IMG/VR virus record: IMGVR_UViG_3300045988_164457
Span: 69,216 to 133,215 of that record
Strand: one strand, 5' to 3'
DNA from: a virus
DNA length: 64,000 bases
The notes below the pieces were generated by a model. That model had not been told where the DNA came from and did no database searches. It was given only the letters and a program-made list of their open reading frames with translations. Position 1 is the stretch's first letter. Each line of letters begins with the position of its first letter. Below are positions 30,304 to 64,000 of the stretch, piece after piece. The translations under genes and the position numbers were made by a program.

Positions 30304-30400
30304 CAAAAGTAATTGGAAGACTCATACACCCCTTTTCTACGTATTACTTACAGCAGTTTGACTACCTACAGAGGAGGGGATTTGTATAAAGGTTTTGATT

Positions 30401-30433
30401 GTCGCACCCCATGTGGGGCGTGTGAGTTGAAAT
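30401..30433 (+). CRISPR. solitary CRISPR-repeat-like unit A (type I-C-like architecture)
   Basis: GTCGCACCCCATGTGGGGCGTGTGAGTTGAAAT. No partner repeat within 200 bp on either side. Confidence 0.65.
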
Positions 30434-30594
30434 TTGATTATGTATCGGATTACCTACTATATCTATTATACTGCAATGCAGATAATAAATCAAGTCGATT
30501 TAGTGCGATTTTCAAATTTTATATATAACATGGGATAATACATTACATTGGCAACTATCCTTTCTATTTTTATTACTATAAATGAGGTGTTCTT

Positions 30595-46856: not shown

Positions 46857-47104
46857 TTGTTTAACCTCCATAAAATTGCATAGCATATTATCAATTACTT
46901 TATATTGATTGCATTGTGCAGGTTTTTACCTCTATTCTCCGCTTGTTACGGCGGAAGAATTCGGAAAGTCTGAAGCGGATCACCTGGATGAATGTTGCTT
47001 TTATAGTGTTCATGATTATTAGCTCCTTTATTATTATATTTTTTTAGTACCCGATTTGTCAAGCCGTTTTATTGGCTTGACTTTTTCGGGATTTTGTGTT
47101 ATGA

Positions 47105-47292: not shown

Positions 47293-47322
47293 ATTATATC
47301 GGATTTTTATTTTACAGTCAAG
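47293..47322 (-). promoter_or_regulatory. leftward promoter
   Basis: Reverse complement reads TTGACT-18-TATAAT. Confidence 0.55.
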
Positions 47323-47449
47323 GGATTTTCTTTTCGTTTTTGTTCTTTCCTTTACTGTAATTATATTATAACATAGTCTAGACTATTTGTCAATGAATAT
47401 ATTGTATTTATAATATCAAACATTTATGAATTATAGGAGCTTTGAATTT

Positions 47450-47653
47450 ATGGATAAAAATAATATTGAACGTGAAAAAATATTTAACAAAAAAGAATAT
47501 GACAAAAACTATAAAAAAGAACATTATAAGCAATTTAATACAAATATATCAATAGAATTAAATGAACAAATAACAAATTATTGCAAGGATAACGGCATAA
47601 CAAAAGCCGACTTTTTAAGGCTTGCAATAGACAAGATAATAAATAACCTATAA
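47450..47653 (+). CDS. ribbon-helix-helix (CopG/Arc-like) protein
   Basis: QFNTNISIELNEQI...GITKADFLRLAIDK. ATG 9 nt after AGGAG; the ORF track starts at 47426. Confidence 0.55.
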   Translation: MDKNNIEREKIFNKKEYDKNYKKEHYKQFNTNISIELNEQITNYCKDNGITKADFLRLAIDKIINNL

Positions 47654-49434
47654 TGCACTATAATCATAGCAATATAGTATATTTTAATGCAATAAGTGTA
47701 TTATGTATTATAGAAGCACCGGAGCTAATAGTCAAATATAATTAGAACGTGTAAATTATATTTGTCAATAGGCATAATATATAAATATAATAATAGTACA
47801 TTGTATATATTGCATAACCAAACCGAAAGTGAATAAAACCGCCGTGACTGCTGCTATAATGCGTTATACGGCATTTTGTTTATAGTGGTATAATTACCCT
47901 AACAGGTGTATTAAAATAGCGTGTGCGTGATTTATTGTTATTTGATATAATTTTATTGTAATTTGATATTTTATTATTGATATTCAATAATCGACGTTTA
48001 TAGAGTGTTAATAATTATGATGTGTTTTAGATATATTTATGTTGTAATATTGCATAGTTTTAAGGTGTGAAATTTGGCTATTTTGCAAAATGTGAGAGTG
48101 CCTGAGCTGAAGCGGTTAAGTGACAGAGTGGTTATATACCAATGTTGTATATTTTAATGTAGTAAAGTTTAGTTGGTTAAAGTATAGTAATACAGTAGGA
48201 ATATAAGGATACCCGAAGAGCATATTTGAAGATAATTATTTGTGTACCGTTTAGGTATAGTTATATATGGTTATGTGGTGTAATTTATAGTAATGTGGTA
48301 TAGTTTAATGCTGTTATGGATTAGCGATTAGGAAAATAGGCTTATGTATTATGATATATTATGATGTATTTTTTAAAATATCTCTTGTATGCTTTGATTT
48401 TCTTTTGTTTTCTCTTGTTTTCTTTATTATGCTTTGATTTGGTTTTAATTTATTTAACAGTGTTAAATAAATTAACAATGTTAACGAACCGCTAATAATG
48501 ACTATTGGTCATTATTTTTAATGCTGCCAACAACAATATTTATATAACAAATTCAAGAAATGTTAATAAAATTAGCTCTAAAATTCATTAAGAAATGTTA
48601 GTAGAAATATTTCTAAAATATGTCTGTCTATGTTGCTTTTGGGGGAAAAATAACATAGAATCGGCAGTACAACCGGGAGGGTACGTTTACATTTAAAAGT
48701 TTGTTAACATTTGCTTATAGTCCTATAGTAGTTCCACTCAACTCACACGTCTAAAAATCCAAATTGACACTCACCCATAATTTCTCTCATAATCCAAAAA
48801 ACAAAAAAATACTCCAAAAATATTCCAAAAATCATTCGATGCTACCTTTCGATAAACTTCCCTATTTATCCCACTTCCAGACCAACAAAAATAGTTCTAA
48901 AACACATCTATCTCAAGAACTCAAAATCCATATCCACACTGCACTTTCAGACAAACTACAGAACACTCTACACCCACTTTACCATCTCAAACAATAAATT
49001 ACCCTATCCACGCAAACAGCTCTCAAATCTAATCACAGAGCCTAATGTAAGTATCTCAAAAATAACATTTCAATACTATATATCTATTCAGAATCAACTT
49101 AAAGATATAATTCATTCACTTCAAATCACACGTCAAACATTTCAAAAACCAACATAAAATCTAAATCGCTCAAATACTAATAAAATCTATACTTTCTCCG
49201 AATACTACAAAAAACAATCAAAAGTATCAGAAATTAAACCTGTATTTAATGTATCAGAAGTATCTCAAATCAAGTAAACATCATAAATTCATAGAAATAA
49301 ATCGAAGATCATAAAAATTACAGATTGTTTTTTGTGTTCTTATGAAAAATTTATAAACTTTTATAAGCTACAGGTCATTGTATGCACCATATTTAAGATA
49401 TTTAAGTAAAAGATAAAATTCAATCAAAAAGCAC

Positions 49435-49462
49435 TTGACATTTTTATGAAACATGATATAAT
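49435..49462 (+). promoter_or_regulatory. rightward promoter
   Basis: TTGACA-16-TATAAT with TGa extension. Confidence 0.65.
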
Positions 49463-49512
49463 AGTATTGTAGATATATTATAAGTAAGTAATAATATAAT
49501 AATGTTCAAAAT

Positions 49513-49626
49513 CTACTTTTCTTTTTTGCTGACAAACTCGTCCATTTCACGTTTTATGGTCTTTGCTACGCAAAGCCTCATAAAACTATGTGAAATAGCC
49601 GACTATCGCCCAAAAAAGAAAAGTAG
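49513..49626 (+). promoter_or_regulatory. 114-nt rod-like imperfect hairpin in the leader of the rightward block
   Basis: Outer 16-bp perfect arms ctacttttcttttttg/caaaaaagaaaagtag. Inner paired segments catttcac-gttttatg/cataaaac-gtgaaatag and ctttgc/gcaaag. Confidence 0.5.
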
Positions 49627-49847
49627 CAAAAGAAAAAAGGGCGAATTATAACTTTTACTAATAATAAAGGAGATGATAAAAACGAATAATAAAAATTATC
49701 CAAATTTAAAATAATAGTATATTATAGTATATATATAAAACATATAATTGGACAATTTTTATACTTATAAGTTTCACAAAGTAATAAGTTAAGTATGGAC
49801 TAACGGGTTTGTACAAATTTAACAGACAAAAGTGAGGTAGATATAAA

Positions 49848-51050
49848 ATGATATATACAGATTATAATAAGAATACTTTGGATATTACTAAATTCAAAGA
49901 ATATATAAAAAACAATGTGGAAGAAAAAGAAGATAATACTATAAAGAATTATAAAATTATGTGTCAACTCATTGGAGAAGAAGAGTGTACAGGAAATTCA
50001 AAAAAAGCACAGGTTAATCGTTGGAAAAGATATTTTGAGTTTCATAAGGAAGGACAGAAATTTGTTATTGATGAGATATACGATGAACCATTTCCCACCG
50101 ATGATGCTCGTAAACGCAGAGAAGGTCTTTATGTAAAGTACATAGAATTGCTGCTTTTAGAGTTTCTTTCAAAACAGGTTGATTACAAAGTAACATTGGG
50201 TAACAAGGAAATGTATCGTATTCTCGGTATGACAAATGACCGTTATGATATTAGAAACAGAATGGGTTCTGCTAAGGCAAATGAGATATTAAGACAGACT
50301 ATTATGAATAATGAGGATAAATTTGCTTTTACAAATACCCCCAAGGTTTCTAATTTTGATATAAACAACTTTTATTTCAGAGCAGAACAGAAGCTTAACA
50401 GGATACTTTATTCAGCTCTTAGGAGTATGAAAGATAGATTTCTCATTGATTATAAGAAAGTCAATATTATAGCTGAGTATGATGATGAAGATTCTCAGCA
50501 CCTTGATTATAGAGAGTCAAATGCTTATGAGGATAAGATAATACTTGAAGTTAAAAATAAAATTATCAAGGAAATGGGATATGATAATCTGACCGAGATA
50601 ATGCTTCGTTATAAATGTGATATTTTTTATGAAAAATTCAATGAGTATATTAAAGAAGAATATGGATGGGACAAATGTTATCCTCAACTTAGAGTTGTTT
50701 ACATTGATGATATTGCTAAACAGATACCACTTAAAGCAGAAGAGATAAAAAAGCTTTCTATTGAAGACAAAAGAACTCAACTCAATGAAGAGATAATTAA
50801 ATGTCTTAATACACAAGCAGAAAAGAAATATAAAGAAGCTGAAACAAGGTTCTTTGAATATGAATGTGATAAAACTGAAGCAGAAGAAAGTGGTGAATGG
50901 GGTAAATATAATCCTTTTGAAAAAGAACCATTTATGTATAAGTCTGATTACGTGGAGATTCAAATGGCATTAACTGATTATCTTTTGAATATTCGTTTTG
51001 AGGAATTAGAGGTAAACCCTAAGAAGAACGATGATAAAAGTGCTGAATAA
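49848..51050 (+). CDS. hypothetical 400-aa protein
   Basis: GAGGTAG RBS. First gene of the rightward block. No motif recognised. Confidence 0.65.
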   Translation: MIYTDYNKNTLDITKFKEYIKNNVEEKEDNTIKNYKIMCQLIGEEECTGNSKKAQVNRWKRYFEFHKEGQKFVIDEIYDEPFPTDDARKRREGLYVKYIELLLLEFLSKQVDYKVTLGNKEMYRILGMTNDRYDIRNRMGSAKANEILRQTIMNNEDKFAFTNTPKVSNFDINNFYFRAEQKLNRILYSALRSMKDRFLIDYKKVNIIAEYDDEDSQHLDYRESNAYEDKIILEVKNKIIKEMGYDNLTEIMLRYKCDIFYEKFNEYIKEEYGWDKCYPQLRVVYIDDIAKQIPLKAEEIKKLSIEDKRTQLNEEIIKCLNTQAEKKYKEAETRFFEYECDKTEAEESGEWGKYNPFEKEPFMYKSDYVEIQMALTDYLLNIRFEELEVNPKKNDDKSAE

Positions 51051-51237: not shown

Positions 51238-51263
51238 ATAATAATATTTGTTGCAAAAAATAC

Positions 51264-51292
51264 TTGACAAATTAAAATTTCCAGTATATACT
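51264..51292 (+). promoter_or_regulatory. sigmaA-type promoter
   Basis: TTGACA-17-TATACT. Confidence 0.6.
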
Positions 51293-51352
51293 ATACTTAG
51301 GAGCAGTAAAAGGCTCAGAATTTATAATACTTATATTAAAGGAGATGTTAAA

Positions 51353-51664
51353 ATGGCAAGTAAAATTAAAATCACAGATAATTTCTATTTTACAGCTGAT
51401 TCAGACCAGTATATTCTTATGGAATGTGGTGAGCGTGAAAAGATTGATCGTAAGACAAGAAAACCTACTGGTGAAATTGGGCAGTATGAAGATATTATCG
51501 GATACTATTCATCTATAGAAGCTCTTATTAGAGGTTGTCGTAAGATTATGGTTAGAGAAAAGGTATCAGAAGGCAGTCTTACTACTATTGACGATATTAT
51601 TGACTATATGAATAACATCAATGATAGACTCGATAATATTCTGTCCAAAGTAGAAGATTATTAA
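51353..51664 (+). CDS. hypothetical protein
   Basis: Start at the ATG after AAGGAG. The ORF track starts at 51248, inside the promoter. Confidence 0.55.
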   Translation: MASKIKITDNFYFTADSDQYILMECGEREKIDRKTRKPTGEIGQYEDIIGYYSSIEALIRGCRKIMVREKVSEGSLTTIDDIIDYMNNINDRLDNILSKVEDY

Positions 51665-54751: not shown

Positions 54752-57547
54752 ATGAGACAGATATATACACTGAAATTTAAATCTTCGCTTCTGAAGGAAT
54801 TTGGGTATAAAATTAATATGGAATTTGATGAAGCTAAAAAATTAAAATGTGTAATTGCATTGGCTGATAGTCAGATGCTTCGTACAATAAGAGAAGTCCG
54901 TGGGCAGGTTATTGATTTTGATAAGGTTGAGGGATTATATACAGACAGAGAAATTTATAATAAAAAGCTTTCAAATTCAAAATCTCTTGGAAAAGATGAC
55001 ATTGAAAAGATTGTTGCTAACAGAAACAAAGTACAATCTGAAATAGACGATATGCTATATGTAAAAGATTATGTAACTATCGTTATGGAAAGCACAAAAG
55101 ATTATGATTATATTTGTGAAAATGGCGTTGAAATAAACGGCAAGGTTTATCACAGGTTGAGTTGTTCTGCTGGACAAGCTCGTAAATCAACTATTGTGGT
55201 TTGTCCAGATGATATTATTGATGAAGTAATTCACAGACTTGATAATGACAGAAACAAGAATATTCCTCTCGCTGCAAGTAAATATAATGCCTATTTTGGA
55301 CTTAGCAGTTCTGCAACTCAGGTTGTAAGTGAACCAAAGTTTATTGTAGTTAAAGATTTTGAAAATACCGATACCTTTGACGTACATTTTGTAACTGAGA
55401 TAGCAGGAAACACCGATGATTTAGTAGAAGATAAGACCGTTACACAGACTTTTAACAGAACTGACGGAATGGGACTTATATCTCCAAGACAGGCTAAGAA
55501 ATGGGCTAATGAGTTAGGATTAGATTATATACCCTCACAATTTGGATTAAGGCAAAGCTTTATAAAGGGTATGCTTTGTACGTTCCCCATTCACGAATTT
55601 TGTGAAGAAATAAACGGTGGCAATTACATAGTAGATACGATTTATAAAGATGAAAGTGGAAATTATATAAAAGTTGATCTTCGAGATTACGACATTATTA
55701 TTTCTGAATCGCAGTTTAAGCTTTGGAATTGTTATAATGGTGTCGATGATTACCTTGAAAAATGCCACAAAAACGGTTTGAAATGGGGTATTCCCCAGTA
55801 TGCACCTAAAGAGTGTAAAAACATTCTAAAGATGAATTACCAGTTCTTACAGACTTTGAACTTGAACGAAACTGACATAAAGGAACTATGCAAGCCTTTT
55901 GTTGATTGGATAACGGGTGTTTCATATGATAACTTTGAATATATGTTACTGTTTTTACTTGGAGTAAATAATACAGAAGAAAGCATAAACAATTTTTTGA
56001 GAAGCAGTGATAATTATTGGTTAAAGTCACTTGTAGTAAATCCCGATTTGAAGAATGATAAATTTATTCGTACAAAAATAAGGGATTTGATAAAGAACAA
56101 AATAAAAAAAGGCTGTATGGGTGATATTTATGTTAAGGGTAATTTTCAGACTTTAGTATCTGACCCATATGCTTATATGCAACACGTTTGTGGTATTGAA
56201 CCCGCAGGATTGCTTGATAAAGATGAATTTTATTCAAACTATTGGAATGAACGTAATGTAGCACAAGTAGACGGTATGAGGTCTCCCCTTACTTTCAGAT
56301 CGGAACACGTTGTTATGAATTTAAAAAAGAATGCTGAAACCGAGAAATGGTACAGGTATTGCAAAACTGGCATTATAATAAATTGGTTTGGTCATACAGT
56401 GCAGAATTTCGGGGGTGCAGATTTTGACCTTGATATTTTAGCAACAACGTCTGACCCTACAATTATTAAGGGTGTTTACAGAAATGAATTAACAATGACG
56501 TATGATGCTCCAAAGCCTGAAAAGAAAATTTTTTCAAAAGAAGATATTCAGAATGCCGACAAGTTTGGTTTTGGTTCAATTATTGGTCAAATAACAAATA
56601 AGAGTAGTAATGCTTACGCTTTACTTAAAGAAATTGAAGATAAATATGGCAAAGATAATGATATGTGGAGAATTACATATTCAAGGTTAATCCAGTGCTG
56701 TAAAGCACAGAGCTGTCAGATTGATAAGACTAAACTGGGACGAGAGGTTAAGGGTATTCCAAAATTATGGGTTGAATATCGAAAAACTGATGATAAAACG
56801 GCTGAAAAGAACAGCTATACGCCAGAGGATATAGAGAAAATAAGGTTTTATAATAGTATTCTTCTTGACAAATATCCATATTTCTTTAGATACAGATACC
56901 CTGATTGTAAGAAGAAGTATGATAAATATGTTGATAGCAATGAAACAGCTTGCAAACAGCGTTTTGGTATTTCCTTAAAGTCTTTAATTGATTTAAGTCA
57001 AAAGACCCCAGAACAAATGACTTTCTTAGATAATTATTATAAGTATATGCCTGTTACAATGAGCGATAGTTCAATGAATTTGCTTTGTAAATACATAGAG
57101 GGTGTCAACTTTGAAATTTCAAAAAAAATCAAAGAAGAAACACTAAGCGAGTTCCTTCCAACATTAAAATATGATGTAGAATATAATAAATCTGAATATA
57201 ATACTGTATCAGATATTATAGATGAATGTTTGCTCTTATATAGAGAAGTACAATTTGAAAACGCTGAGAAGGACAAGGATAACCGAGAAATTTTTGATTT
57301 TTCAAAATACACCTCAGAAATCATACTTGCAATAGGAAGTGTTGAGAAGGCTTTAAACTATGTGATTGATTATTTTTACATCAATAATCCAAAAAAGAGT
57401 AAAGACATTATGTGGGAAATGTTTGGCAGATACATTTACACAAGAATAAAAAAAGATATTTCTACTGTAATATTTCCGATGCCTGATAAAAATGGTAATA
57501 TTACATATTTGGGTGAAAACTATTCTGTACAGGAGGTTGAAATATGA
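54752..57547 (+). CDS. candidate single-subunit two-barrel RNA polymerase (SPbeta YonO-like)
   Basis: 931 aa. GGADFDLDIL resembles the NADFDGD/DxDxD catalytic loop of two-barrel RNAPs. HU-like gene lies downstream, as with yonN-yonO in SPbeta. Confidence 0.55.
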   Translation: MRQIYTLKFKSSLLKEFGYKINMEFDEAKKLKCVIALADSQMLRTIREVRGQVIDFDKVEGLYTDREIYNKKLSNSKSLGKDDIEKIVANRNKVQSEIDDMLYVKDYVTIVMESTKDYDYICENGVEINGKVYHRLSCSAGQARKSTIVVCPDDIIDEVIHRLDNDRNKNIPLAASKYNAYFGLSSSATQVVSEPKFIVVKDFENTDTFDVHFVTEIAGNTDDLVEDKTVTQTFNRTDGMGLISPRQAKKWANELGLDYIPSQFGLRQSFIKGMLCTFPIHEFCEEINGGNYIVDTIYKDESGNYIKVDLRDYDIIISESQFKLWNCYNGVDDYLEKCHKNGLKWGIPQYAPKECKNILKMNYQFLQTLNLNETDIKELCKPFVDWITGVSYDNFEYMLLFLLGVNNTEESINNFLRSSDNYWLKSLVVNPDLKNDKFIRTKIRDLIKNKIKKGCMGDIYVKGNFQTLVSDPYAYMQHVCGIEPAGLLDKDEFYSNYWNERNVAQVDGMRSPLTFRSEHVVMNLKKNAETEKWYRYCKTGIIINWFGHTVQNFGGADFDLDILATTSDPTIIKGVYRNELTMTYDAPKPEKKIFSKEDIQNADKFGFGSIIGQITNKSSNAYALLKEIEDKYGKDNDMWRITYSRLIQCCKAQSCQIDKTKLGREVKGIPKLWVEYRKTDDKTAEKNSYTPEDIEKIRFYNSILLDKYPYFFRYRYPDCKKKYDKYVDSNETACKQRFGISLKSLIDLSQKTPEQMTFLDNYYKYMPVTMSDSSMNLLCKYIEGVNFEISKKIKEETLSEFLPTLKYDVEYNKSEYNTVSDIIDECLLLYREVQFENAEKDKDNREIFDFSKYTSEIILAIGSVEKALNYVIDYFYINNPKKSKDIMWEMFGRYIYTRIKKDISTVIFPMPDKNGNITYLGENYSVQEVEI

Positions 57548-62697: not shown

Positions 62698-62771
62698 GGC
62701 GAGTTGGTCTAATGGTAGGATTAGGGTCTCATAAACCTTAGATTTACGTTCAAGTCGTAAGCTCGCACCCA
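62698..62771 (+). tRNA. tRNA with anticodon CAT (Met, fMet or Ile2 identity unresolved)
   Basis: Hand-folded, 74 nt: D-arm GTCTAATGGTAGGAT, anticodon loop CTCATAA, T-loop TTCAAGT, CCA encoded. Position 1-72 is a G-A mismatch. Confidence 0.75.
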
Positions 62772-64000
62772 ATAGTAAAAATCACTGTCAATGAAGGTTT
62801 TTGTAATAACCATCGTGAGTGTACGATTATATTATGGTCAAATTTAATCAGATGCCTCAAATTATGATGATTATAGTTTTTGGCGTTATACATAGCTATG
62901 AGCATTTGTATTAACAATAGTTGACAAAGTGTTTGACCAACACTATTCGTCTGATGACAAGGATAAGAGTAAATGGATATGATGCCTTGTAAAAACTTTA
63001 TTCTAACGTGTGCAATAAACCTATTAAGATTATCCATTCGAGATAGTACGAATAGAATAGACATACTGAAGTAATTGGATTCTGATTTATCAGAATGGGC
63101 GTTTATAAGTATGTTATATGTAAACACAGATTTAATACGTTTGTGTTTACACCAAGTAGGCAGTTCTCGATAATCTGCTGTTAGTAGCTCTGTCTGCGGA
63201 CAACTGAGGTCAAAGTAGATATGCGTATCAAAATGACTAAATCAAATATGAAGTGAAACCAACACTCTTTAAATAAATGGTAAAAACGGAAAATATAAAA
63301 CAATAATAAACTTGTTTGTAAGAAAGATGCTTGCATTTTCCCATTTTCACTACCGTTTGTGAAGTTTATTCGTCCAGTCGAGGGTGGAATGACGTTAAAC
63401 TCTACCCTACCATAATGGTTCTGAGAAAATAATTATCAGAATTATGTTTACAATAACCCCGATGAAAACGGTTGTCAACCTTTCGGGACACGATTATAAT
63501 GAATGTTTATGGAATGATAGTTTTATAAGCAAGTCAACTTTGTATTATGAAAGTATGCAAGATGAGAGGAAAATCCTCAAATTTAGTTGTGGTGCTAAGA
63601 GTTATCGCTTCAAAAAGCACAGAACTTATCGCTGTGGTAATAGACGCTTCTGTGAAGAATAAGCCTTATACTAACGAGTGGAATCGCAAAGTCACTAAGG
63701 TAATCCAAAAGAACACAGTCTGTTTTGATGCTTGAGAAATCAAGCTATAAGGTAAGTCGCTGGTAAAAGTAGCCATATGACAGTATTGGGAACAAATCTT
63801 TTTTTTGTAATGATTTTAAAGAAAATTTCAAATGCTGAATGACTGGTGAAATTTGTGTATAACCAATTACACGCAAGCTTTGAGAGTAATCTACGGTAAG
63901 AAGCTATAGGGTCGCTACCTATAGTTCAGCCTTATCGTCTTGGTGGCTGAATATTGAAGAAGATAATGGAGGTACGGCGAAGGTCGTATTGCAGGCATAA
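62772..64000 (+). ncRNA. candidate large structured non-coding RNA (truncated by window end)
   Basis: More than 1.2 kb without an RBS-supported ORF, visibly more GC-rich than its surroundings. Many local hairpins, e.g. 63079-63096, 63120-63150, 63904-63924 and 63925-63951. Directly downstream of a tRNA. Confidence 0.35.

What the first reader, a model, noticed from the sequence alone, without database searches (positions are those of the whole stretch)
47654..49847. 2.2-kb ORF-free pivot whose top strand flips from C-depleted to G-depleted where gene orientation flips
Seen: there is no RBS-supported ORF between the RHH gene (ends 47653) and the first rightward gene (49848). My per-60-nt tallies on the top strand follow. 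For 47941-48000, C=3. For 48001-48060, C=1. For 48241-48300, C=2 against G=16. After the centre, 48721-48780 has G=4 against C=19, 48781-48840 has G=1 against C=13, and 48841-48900 has G=4 against C=18. G stays at 2-6 per line until about 49320. Both arms carry degenerate repeats. The left arm has GTATATTTTAATG at 47687 and 48147. The right arm has TCACACGTC at 48743 and 49126, and at least five copies of ATCTCAA(A/G) between 48909 and 49269. A 12-nt match to the CRISPR-like unit (TCAACTCACACG, 48738-48749) sits at the start of the right arm. All genes to the left of about 47.3 kb are on the minus strand and all to the right of 49.85 kb are on the plus strand. Possible explanations, all inference: a replication origin or terminus with R-loop-prone arms (RNA made toward the centre would be G-rich and C-free on both sides); long unstructured non-coding RNAs; or the footprint of strand-specific cytosine deamination.
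Basis: partly seen in the sequence, partly recalled or inferred. Interest (0 to 1): 0.7.

Follow-up and report, generated by a model that had tools for sequence, protein, structure and literature searches.

The report
Skewed arms flanking phage packaging site
The gene-free "pivot" is most likely where this SPβ-like gut phage starts packaging its DNA, and the stretches on either side of that site have a lopsided base composition that is kept from Bacillus phages to gut phages even though their sequence is not.

Summary
The top strand is G-rich and C-poor over about 47905-48340 (GC skew +0.6). It is C-rich and G-poor over 48730-49320 (skew -0.6 to -0.7). No other part of the window exceeds 0.46. 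The arms are non-coding. All roughly 50 related human-gut phage contigs checked keep the same pattern, although the arms of the two clades no longer align. So composition is conserved and sequence is not.

The new point concerns the roughly 250-bp centre, about 48480-48729. It matches the "genome opening / pac" block mapped by read coverage in Bacillus phage SPβ between yonR and yonP. The block-end motif and an anchor spacing (216 vs 217 nt) are shared. SPβ's strongest skew genome-wide lies beside that block. Two Bacillus phage records, BUCT082 and BUCT083, open exactly at the two block edges and carry the same arms.

On each side, the strand that would end 3' at a cut in the block is G/T-rich and C-poor. 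All four arm strands are the least foldable single strands in the window.

Best reading: a packaging-start or genome-end region with strand-asymmetric flanks tied to single-stranded end processing. The pac identity rests on homology, and the cause of the skew is inferred. An oriC-like origin is not supported.

The parts
47365..47414 (.). Back-to-back sigma-70-type promoters: a leftward one (47393-47365, 12/12 with TG) and a rightward one (47387-47414, 11/12) for the RHH gene
47426..47653 (+). Small ribbon-helix-helix regulator (Arc/CopG-like; PF10723 RepB-RCR_reg)
   Evidence: called as a gene on independent contigs
47856..47877 (+). Short terminator-like hairpin followed by a T run (AATGCGTTRTACGGCRTTTT), present in both clades with a U-G to U-A change
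   Evidence: read from the alignment; inference
47886..47894 (+). Extended -10-like element TGgTATAAT pointing right, sited just before the left arm begins. It is only weakly conserved (TGgTAGTAT in clade B)
   Evidence: inference, not a demonstrated promoter
47905..48340 (.). Left arm. The top strand is G/T-rich and C-poor (A31 C5 G22 T41 %). It is 460 nt here and up to about 1000 nt in clade B
48380..48475 (.). T/C-rich direct repeats (48381-48400 and 48421-48440) and a perfect 15+15 palindrome (48445-48475), lying just outside the predicted block start
48480..48729 (.). Predicted packaging-start / terminal block, homologous to the roughly 251-bp SPβ 'pac-site fragment'. It contains a hairpin plus T run with ATTATTTTTAATG (48494-48523), 30-nt direct repeats (48555-48619), the hairpin CTATGTTG..CAACATAG (48627-48660), GGGTACGTTTACATTT (48679-48694) and the end motif CCTATAGT (48722-48729). 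The left edge is predicted from spacing only (±15 nt)
48730..49320 (.). Right arm. The top strand is C/A-rich and G-poor (A43 C27 G5 T26 %). It starts with the conserved AGTTCCACTCAACTCACAC and includes phased A-tracts at 48805-48837
49298..49348 (.). Most conserved 50 nt of the whole interval (95% in clade A), at the sharp outer edge of the right arm. CGAAGA..ATAAAATT is shared with clade B. Function unknown
49435..49462 (+). Consensus promoter TTGACA-16-TGnTATAAT for the rightward operon, conserved in clade B
49513..49626 (+). Conserved 114-nt leader hairpin. The 16-bp basal stem is invariant and the inner stems differ between clades with compensatory changes
49668..49715 (+). Conserved AAGGAGATGAT (Shine-Dalgarno plus ATG) followed by a short, non-conserved mini-ORF (13 codons here)
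   Evidence: inference
49848..51050 (+). First rightward gene (400 aa, phrog_36702, function unknown), used as the anchor for finding relatives

Best explanation
The interval is the phage's DNA-packaging start and genome-end region, joined to its early control elements. The phage is SPβ-like: it has a YonO-type RNA polymerase, a YorL-type DNA polymerase and a genome of 120-135 kb. The central block of about 250 bp (roughly 48480-48729) is the counterpart of the SPβ 'genome opening / pac' block, where terminase starts packaging toward the YonO operon. Both edges of that block behave as DNA ends in SPβ-like virion DNA. The two skewed arms are the flanks of that block. On each side, the strand that would end 3' at a cut in the block is G/T-rich and almost C-free, and its partner is C/A-rich and almost G-free, so neither strand can fold on itself. 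My inferred mechanism is that these flanks are repeatedly made single-stranded during end processing, meaning 5'-to-3' resection for circularisation or concatemer formation, or strand displacement at the terminal block. That exposure causes C-to-T and A-to-G decay on the exposed strand, and selection additionally favours unstructured, C-free, GT-rich 3' tails. Shown here: the skew, its conservation without sequence conservation, its non-coding nature, homology of the centre to the SPβ block, the polarity relative to the block in four lineages, and the low foldability. Inferred: that DNA ends form here in this particular phage, and why the arms are skewed.
For: (1) Every relative checked keeps the +arm/-arm pattern: 24 IMG/VR loci (23 with enough upstream sequence to profile) plus further motif-found viral contigs. 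The 20 metagenome loci were retrieved but not skew-profiled. The arms of clade A and clade B give no blastn match to each other.
(2) In SPβ the top-scoring 300-nt skew window of the whole 134-kb genome (0.61) is 64126-64650, in the yonP-yonR gap.
(3) Kohm et al. (bioRxiv 10.1101/2021.11.22.469490, section 18 and supplement item 11) place the genome opening point and a sharp-edged block of about 251 bp in that gap. The block's yonP-side end...GGGGGTATATTTACATCT..CCCATAGC|ACTTCC, is the motif I had found conserved at the start of the window's right arm, GGGTACGTTTACATTT..CCTATAGT|AGTTCC. The review PMC8270828 cites restriction mapping to the same gap.
(4) The combined pattern occurs once in the window (0 expected), once in SPβ, once in BUCT082 and once in each gut relative where it matched. 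The anchor-to-block-end spacing is 216 nt in the window and 217 nt in SPβ and BUCT082.
(5) The BUCT082 record begins exactly at the SPβ first-packed base, and BUCT083 begins exactly at the other block edge. Both have arms of the same polarity on both sides: -0.6 to -0.95 and +0.57 to +0.77.
(6) In BUCT082 the C-rich arm is followed by a terminator and by genes converging on it, so the arm stays with the block rather than with a promoter.
(7) As ssDNA the four arm strands have MFE/nt of -0.022 to -0.041. That is weaker than all 174 background windows (mean -0.081, least stable -0.044). The block itself is -0.10 to -0.11.
(8) The G-rich strand is also T-rich (T 41-43%), as expected for C-to-T and A-to-G decay or a GT-rich preference.
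Against: No direct evidence of DNA ends exists for this phage or its gut relatives, and metagenome contig ends do not coincide with the block. The SPβ mapping comes from a preprint's read-coverage edges. The BUCT record starts could follow that convention rather than independent end mapping. The full-length alignment of the window centre to the SPβ block is only z≈2.5 above shuffles, so the homology rests on the end motif, one anchor, spacing and context. Clade B has a different anchor spacing (172 nt).

Against a purely mutational cause: the outer edges of the arms are sharp, going from -0.51 to about 0 within 100 nt while the next 500 nt of non-coding DNA is unskewed. The right arm is not faster-evolving than third codon positions, with 47% against 60% variable sites. 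C>T and G>A per-site frequencies are equal in the right arm. Substitution counts cannot separate mutation bias from selection.
Confidence: 0.5

Rival explanations
1. Outward G-poor transcripts. Promoters in or near the block send RNA outward through each arm. These C-rich, G-poor, unstructured RNAs would be very strong loading sites for termination factor Rho. The arms would then act as insulators that stop read-through into the repressed early operons on either side.
For: Read outward, both arms are C 22-32% and G 4-7% and essentially unstructured, which is the composition of rut sites (established knowledge, from memory). The right arm ends sharply about 110 nt before the consensus promoter at 49435. 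In SPβ the arm is followed by a sigma-A-like promoter of yonP that carries an MrpR operator peak. An sRNA candidate in the yonP orientation (ncr1052, 183 nt) was detected between yonR and yonP. The likely host class, Clostridia, usually has Rho (from memory; host inferred).
Against: No conserved outward promoter was found. The TTGACA-18-CATAAT at 48764 and the TATAGT at 48724 are not conserved in clade B or SPβ. An arm of 500-1000 nt is far more than a rut site needs. Rho gives no reason for T>A on the G-rich strand. In BUCT082 the C-rich arm is followed by an intrinsic terminator and converging genes rather than an operon to insulate.
Confidence: 0.15
2. Inward G-rich transcripts forming R-loops. 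Transcription enters each arm from its outer edge and makes G-rich, C-poor RNA that stays hybridised. The hybrid would prime replication, or help open or process DNA at the block, as in R-loop origins or the T7 phiOR-dependent concatemer processing.
For: An extended -10-like TGgTATAAT sits immediately before the left arm and points inward. A hairpin plus T run at 48494-48523 could end such a transcript. Positive GC skew downstream of a promoter favours R-loops (from memory). YonO-type polymerases lack the lid that separates RNA from template, as noted in PMC5467207. A weak replication-initiator-like gene lies 1.4 kb away at 51248-51664 (phrog_154, E=4e-10).
Against: No credible leftward promoter lies at the outer edge of the right arm, and the best candidate is deleted in L005. 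The arms have isolated G's rather than G-clusters. There is no DnaA-box cluster. The sign of the skew is the reverse of that expected for an origin at the centre. Arm-to-arm complementarity is no better than shuffled sequence (-122 vs -131±8.5 kcal/mol).
Confidence: 0.12
3. Protein-binding arrays for packaging. The arms are loosely repeated binding or bending sites for the small terminase or an accessory protein, like pacL/pacR of SPP1 or the repeat arrays beside the T7 terminal repeat. The skew would be a by-product of oriented short motifs.
For: Short oriented repeats occur in the arms: ATCTCAA(A/G) x4 exact, GTATC(A/T)(G/C)AA, TCCAAAAA with an 11-nt phase at 48805-48837, and GGACTGCT(T/G) five to six times in clade B. 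In T7 the repeat array next to the left terminal repeat has skew -0.57/-0.51.
Against: The motifs are few, differ between clades, and cover a small part of each arm. Most of each arm has no repeat structure. A binding array does not predict that both strands be unfoldable, or the mirror polarity. The right side of T7 is not mirrored.
Confidence: 0.12

Closest known systems
SPβ 'genome opening point / pac-site fragment' between yonR and yonP (Kohm et al., bioRxiv 10.1101/2021.11.22.469490; Fink & Zahler 1982 as cited there and in PMC8270828)
   Same: It has the same genomic place, a non-coding gap upstream of the YonO-polymerase operon at a switch of gene orientation. It shares the block-end motif GGGTAnnTTTACAT..TAGnAnTTnCAy, the ATT(T/C)TTTAAT anchor about 217 nt before the block end, and flanking arms of the same polarity.
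   Different: Most of the block interior is not alignable. The arms here are longer (0.46-1.0 kb against 0.3-0.4 kb). The neighbouring regulator is an RHH protein pointing toward the block, not the Xre-type yonR pointing away. The SPβ papers read here do not mention the skewed arms.
T7 concatemer junction: terminal repeat flanked by the short-repeat arrays SRL and SRR (names from memory; composition computed here)
   Same: A terminal block (160 bp) is followed on the left end by a C/A-rich, G-poor non-coding stretch of about 200 bp, with skew -0.57/-0.51.
   Different: The T7 stretch is an obvious heptamer array. The right-hand side is not the mirror image (skew -0.3 to 0). There is no sequence relationship.
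SPP1-type pac site (pacL-pacC-pacR bound by the small terminase; from memory)
   Same: A cleavage region is flanked by two recognition or bending regions, with phased A-tracts near the cut.
   Different: SPP1 pac lies within or next to the terminase small-subunit gene and spans about 270 bp. No strand-composition asymmetry is described for it, and no sequence similarity was tested here.
Vertebrate mitochondrial strand asymmetry and telomere polarity (from memory)
   Same: The composition matches: one strand is G+T-rich and the other A+C-rich with about 5% G, a pattern attributed in mtDNA to time spent single-stranded. As at telomeres, the strand running 5'-to-3' toward the DNA end is the G/T-rich one.
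   Different: These are entirely different replication and maintenance systems. There is no repeat unit and no telomerase. The analogy is one of polarity and composition only.
Rho utilisation (rut) sites and R-loop origins (ColE1 RNA II, T4 oriF/oriG, lactococcal phage c2 ori transcript; from memory)
   Same: They share the C-rich/G-poor unstructured RNA (rut) or the G-rich RNA over a C-rich template (R-loop). The c2 ori also lies between divergent early and late clusters.
   Different: No transcripts are known here. The arms are 5-10 times longer than rut sites and lack G-clusters, and they stay with the packaging block when gene order changes (BUCT082).

Membership tests
SPβ-type packaging-start (pac / genome-opening) block | Lies in the non-coding gap upstream of the YonO-type RNA polymerase operon in an SPβ-like genome | tested here: met
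   The YonO homologue at 54752-57547 matches PF05183, is 46% identical to the BUCT082 protein and 25% identical to SPβ YonO. The block lies 6 kb upstream on the same side.
SPβ-type packaging-start (pac / genome-opening) block | Block-end sequence GGGTAnnTTTACAT-(20-50)-TAGnAnTTnCAy at the junction with the C-rich arm | tested here: met
   There is one match in the window at 48679-48737 with 0 expected, one each in SPβ and BUCT082 at the mapped block end, and one in each gut relative matched. The pattern was generalised after seeing SPβ.
SPβ-type packaging-start (pac / genome-opening) block | Block length of about 250 bp | tested here: inconclusive
   The anchor-to-end distance is 216 nt in the window, 217 in SPβ and BUCT082 and 211 in L005/L024, but 172 in clade B. 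The left edge in the window is predicted from spacing only.
SPβ-type packaging-start (pac / genome-opening) block | Virion DNA ends or read-coverage edges at the block boundaries | not testable with these tools
   No virion reads are available. Metagenome contig ends do not coincide with the block. For Bacillus relatives, the supplement of the Kohm preprint and the BUCT082/083 record starts agree.
Chromosome-type replication origin (DnaA boxes plus AT-rich unwinding element) | Cluster of DnaA boxes TTATCCACA | tested here: not met
   Only two one-mismatch hits lie in the interval (48930, 49696). The window total is 33 against 24±5 expected.
Chromosome-type replication origin (DnaA boxes plus AT-rich unwinding element) | GC skew switches from negative to positive across the origin | tested here: not met
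   Within the interval the switch runs from positive to negative. The window-scale minimum of cumulative skew follows gene orientation.
Iteron-type phage or plasmid origin | Three or more tandem iterons next to an initiator gene | tested here: inconclusive
   Only two-copy repeats are present (48555-48619, and 48381-48400 with 48421-48440). A weak phrog_154 match lies at 51248-51664.
Rho-dependent terminator (rut site) | C>G, unstructured RNA of at least about 80 nt in the direction of transcription | tested here: met
   This is met for outward reading of both arms, on composition only.
Rho-dependent terminator (rut site) | A transcript actually crosses it and ends downstream in a Rho-dependent way | not testable with these tools
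   No RNA data are available and no conserved outward promoter was found.
Known structured RNA family (Rfam) | Covariance-model match | tested here: not met
   There is no match in 47300-49900 even at E<=1. At gathering threshold the window yields only tRNAs and ROOL elsewhere.
CRISPR array | Two or more repeats separated by spacers | tested here: not met
   Only a 12-nt match to a solitary repeat-like unit is present, with no repeat-spacer structure in the interval or around 30.4 kb.
Protein-coding region / small-ORF array | Three-base periodicity of substitutions and indels in multiples of three | tested here: not met
   Variable sites by phase are 83/85/90 and 101/90/92, against 38/29/60 in the neighbouring gene. 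Indel lengths include 1, 5, 8 and 10 nt.

The most novel reading that the evidence does not exclude
SPβ-like phages carry 'telomere-like' subterminal arms. Over 0.3-1 kb on each side of the terminal packaging block, selection rather than only mutation keeps the strand that ends 3' at the genome end C-free and G/T-rich, and keeps its partner G-free. Resected or displaced tails would then be unstructured, resistant to cytosine deamination, and good substrates for recombinase or annealase loading. This would be a composition-encoded, sequence-independent element for end processing, circularisation or concatemer formation, conserved from Bacillus to gut Clostridia phages.
Probability: 0.25. Interest if true: 0.75.

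Novelty: new variant of a known kind. Interest (0 to 1): 0.6.

Why it matters
If correct, this places the packaging start site of a whole family of uncultured human-gut phages of 120-146 kb, which helps with genome orientation, end prediction and engineering.

It also adds a feature that the SPβ papers I could read do not describe. These are two non-coding flanks whose base composition, not sequence, is conserved with a fixed polarity relative to the DNA ends.

That feature is directly testable in SPβ, a genetically tractable model whose replication and packaging are described in the review PMC8270828 as almost unstudied. It could show how strand-specific single-stranded exposure or selection shapes phage genome ends.

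It also offers a simple computational signature for finding termini in SPβ-like metagenomic genomes: paired opposite skew peaks around an unskewed block of about 250 bp.

Tried and rejected
(1) A giant hairpin or ancient inverted repeat between the arms. MFE folds pair the arms, but the duplex energy of -122 kcal/mol is no better than shuffled arms (-131±8.5). The best local match of 26 nt is within the shuffle range. Rejected.

(2) Hidden coding or a small-ORF array. There is no periodicity and the indels are not in frame. Rejected.

(3) A known RNA family. None was found, even at a permissive threshold.

(4) An oriC-like origin. There is no DnaA-box cluster.

(5) B. subtilis Chi sites (AGCGG) in the Bacillus arms. 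I saw none when reading the BUCT082 and SPβ arms. This was not counted formally, and the host Chi for the gut phages is unknown.

(6) INPHARED blastn of the interval gave no hit.

(7) A genome-contig scan with the 400-aa protein profile gave no relatives.

(8) The YonO-encoding Enterocloster phage CB473P1 has extremely AT-rich ends and no arms, so the feature is not general to YonO phages.

(9) Contig ends as a proxy for physical ends. Breaks cluster about 2060 nt upstream of the gene, in a low-complexity and strain-variable spot, and not at the block.

(10) Mapping the SPβ sRNA candidate ncr1052 onto the block or the arm failed. I could not fix the offset between the B. subtilis and SPβ coordinates to better than ±270 nt.

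(11) The substitution spectrum, as a way to separate mutation bias from selection, is uninformative in principle and confounded by polarisation.
Full report
**The observation**

G stays at 1-6 per 60 nt from 48721 to 49320. In 200-nt windows the top-strand GC skew is +0.55 to +0.63 over 47900-48400 and -0.51 to -0.73 over 48700-49300. Nowhere else in the 64 kb does a 400-nt window exceed |0.46|.

The left arm (47921-48340) is A31 C5 G22 T41 %. The right arm is A43 C27 G5 T26 %. Some details need correcting. One repeat coordinate is off by 10. ATCTCAA(A/G) has four exact copies rather than five. The statement that all genes to the left are on the minus strand is wrong, because 30.6-42.3 kb is a plus-strand block and the RHH gene is on the plus strand.

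**The interval is non-coding and matches no known RNA**

In an alignment of ten close relatives, variable sites show no three-base periodicity in the arms (83/85/90 and 101/90/92). The neighbouring gene gives 38/29/60. Indels are not multiples of three. Gene callers on independent contigs call nothing between the RHH gene and the 400-aa gene. Rfam gives no match even at E<=1.

**Composition is conserved and sequence is not**

The 400-aa gene at 49848 recovered 24 viral contigs and 20 metagenome contigs, all from human gut, with contigs up to 146 kb. They fall into two clades, with 87-98% and about 67% protein identity to the window's gene.

Every locus profiled that had enough upstream sequence shows the same positive-then-negative skew. 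Yet blastn finds no similarity between the arms of the two clades. Only three short islands match. The left arm is 460-1000 nt, the right arm is 465-555 nt, and the spacer is 300-390 nt.

**What kind of phage this is**

The window encodes a YonO-type single-subunit RNA polymerase (PF05183). It is 46% identical to that of Bacillus phage BUCT082 (genus Spbetavirus) and 25% identical to SPβ YonO. The window also encodes a large DNA polymerase, a PhoH-like protein, an exonuclease, methyltransferases, tRNAs and a ROOL RNA. It is therefore a distant SPβ-like phage.

A solitary CRISPR-repeat-like unit at 30397-30436 matches the repeats of a CRISPR array in an uncultured Clostridia genome at about 89%. 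This suggests the host class.

**The key comparison with SPβ**

Scanning SPβ itself, the strongest 300-nt skew in its 134 kb (0.61) is at 64126-64650, in the non-coding gap between yonP and yonR upstream of yonO. Read in the yonO direction, the C-rich arm there is preceded by GGGGGTATATTTACATCT...CCCATAGC|ACTTCCATTTCCACAC.

This is the same module I had already found conserved in both gut clades at the start of the right arm: GGGTAnGTTTACATTT, about 30 variable nt, then TAGTAGTTyCAyTC..CACAC.

Kohm et al. (bioRxiv 10.1101/2021.11.22.469490) report that the genome opening point and packaging start of SPβ, phi3T and Goe11-14 lie between yonR and yonP. Their supplement gives a sharp-edged fragment of about 251 bp "containing the pac-site". 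One end of it is exactly ...CCCATAGC. The other end, CTTCGATTCCC..., is the first base packaged, with packaging running toward yonP. The review PMC8270828 cites older restriction mapping to the same gap.

Two GenBank records agree with this. BUCT082 (linear) starts exactly at CTTCGATTCCC. BUCT083 starts exactly at GCTATGGGTAC, the other edge.

In both records the block of about 250 bp is unskewed and is flanked by arms of -0.6 to -0.95 on one side and +0.57 to +0.77 on the other, with the same polarity as in the window.

**Strength of the homology**

The combined end pattern occurs once in the window (48679-48737, none expected). It occurs once in SPβ, once in BUCT082, and once in each gut relative it matched.

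A second shared element, ATT(T/C)TTTAAT, lies 216 nt before the block end in the window and 217 nt before it in SPβ and BUCT082. From this I predict the window's block at about 48480-48729.

There are weaknesses. The block interior does not align convincingly (z≈2.5). Clade B has a 172-nt spacing. No end mapping exists for the gut phages, and contig ends do not help.

**Polarity and physical properties**

On both sides, the strand that would end 3' at a cut in the block is the G/T-rich, C-poor strand. Folded as single-stranded DNA, all four arm strands (-0.022 to -0.041 kcal/mol per nt) are less stable than every one of 174 background windows (mean -0.081, least stable -0.044). The block itself is more structured than average, at -0.10 to -0.11.

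In BUCT082 the C-rich arm is followed by a terminator and by genes that converge on it. The arm therefore travels with the block, not with an operon promoter.

**Why the arms are skewed (inference)**

Plain cytosine deamination is not sufficient. The complementary base is enriched (C 22-32% or G 20-23%, against 11-14% in the adjacent non-coding centre), and GC content is not lowered. In the right arm C>T and G>A are equally frequent per site (0.57 and 0.56). The asymmetry lies instead in T>C (0.40) against A>G (0.18).

A combination of C-to-T and A-to-G change on an exposed strand, as in mitochondrial DNA (from memory), would give the observed G+T-rich strand. So would selection for GT-rich, C-free, unfoldable tails.

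The sharp outer edges, and the fact that the right arm varies less than third codon positions (47% against 60%), argue that selection contributes.

I therefore favour repeated single-strandedness of these flanks during end processing, with both decay and selection acting. I hold the mechanism loosely.

**Rival explanations**

- Outward G-poor transcripts serving as Rho loading sites fit the composition and the sharp stop before the consensus promoter at 49435. They lack a conserved promoter and do not explain the BUCT082 arrangement.
- Inward R-loop-forming transcripts have one plausible promoter (TGgTATAAT at 47886-47894) and one terminator-like hairpin (48494-48523). They have no counterpart on the right side, no G-clusters, and no origin signatures.
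- Terminase-binding arrays are suggested by a few oriented short repeats and phased A-tracts. These cover little of the arms and differ between clades.
- A giant inter-arm hairpin is rejected.

**Other elements inside the interval**

- Back-to-back promoters and the RHH regulator at 47365-47653.
- A consensus promoter at 49435-49462.
- A 114-nt leader hairpin at 49513-49626. It has 29 predicted pairs, six of which keep pairing through changes on both sides between clades.
- A conserved Shine-Dalgarno plus ATG with a non-conserved mini-ORF at 49668-49715.

**Verdict**

The finding is real and conserved. The pivot is best read as the packaging-start or genome-end region of an SPβ-like phage. Its skewed flanks are not mentioned in the SPβ papers I read or among the listed hits of my literature searches. 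Identity of the centre: about 0.75. Mechanism of the skew: open.

Noticed in passing
window 30390-30436 (+): A solitary CRISPR-repeat-like unit, GTTTTGATTGTCGCACCCCATGTGGGGCGTGTGAGTTGAAAT, with no array around it. An uncultured Clostridia MAG (CALZUA010000016.1, L069) carries an array of at least 16 repeats that are about 88-91% identical. It may be a solitary repeat unit of the RNA anti-CRISPR kind, and it hints at the host. The 12-nt reverse-complement match at 48738-48749 lies in the conserved start of the right arm, but it is not conserved in clade B and is probably chance.
   Followed up: partly
window 63439-64000 (+): A full-length ROOL RNA (313 bits, model 1-574) sits just after a tRNA-Met at 62698-62771, downstream of the YonO-type polymerase cluster. 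In SPβ the YonO-transcribed late operon also starts with an unannotated non-coding RNA (PMC5467207).
   Followed up: no
window 54752-57547 (+): A 931-aa YonO-type single-subunit RNA polymerase (PF05183). It is 46% identical to a protein annotated as hypothetical in Bacillus phage BUCT082 and 25-34% identical to homologues in SPβ, Clostridium phage c-st and Enterocloster phages.
   Followed up: partly
window 49513-49626 (+): A 114-nt near-palindromic leader hairpin downstream of the consensus promoter. The basal 16-bp T-run/A-run stem is invariant. The inner stems are replaced between clades with compensatory pairs. In L008 the apical loop sequence is the reverse complement of the window's. On the minus strand it would be followed by AUUUU, so it may also act as a leftward terminator.
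   Followed up: partly
L070 3410-3475 (SPβ) and L025 8632-8697 (BUCT082): The 1.7-kb gene-free, GC-rich (40-49%) gap between yonN and yonK in SPβ-like Bacillus phages contains a DUF3800-VIII RNA motif hit (47.5 bits). This is the region where YonO starts transcription.
   Followed up: no
window 47029-47062 and 47762-47795: A 34-nt imperfect inverted repeat, each arm carrying a TTGTCAA/TTGACAA promoter-like -35 element. The TGTCAATAG core at 47764 is conserved in both clades. Several metagenome contigs break about 2060 nt upstream of the 400-aa gene, right at this spot.
   Followed up: no
L080 (ENA scaffold BRIT16-1_SAMN02334089_METAG-scaffold_12, 241 kb): One contig carrying an identical 400-aa protein is 241 kb long, about twice the phage genome size. 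It may be an integrated prophage, a concatemer or a mis-scaffold, and could reveal the host.
   Followed up: no
L083 7849-8898 and L084 7075-8124: In some close relatives the N6/N4 methyltransferase slot upstream of the polymerase is occupied by a ParB_N-domain protein of 349 aa.
   Followed up: no
SPβ-like Bacillus phages: Similarity between Bacillus SPβ-like genomes in the yonR-yonP gap starts at or within about 55 nt of the block start (query positions 235-290). The block plus arm is only about 78% identical between SPβ and phi3T, although their genome-wide ANI is about 97% (Table S1 of the preprint). The block edge therefore looks like a mosaic boundary.
   Followed up: no
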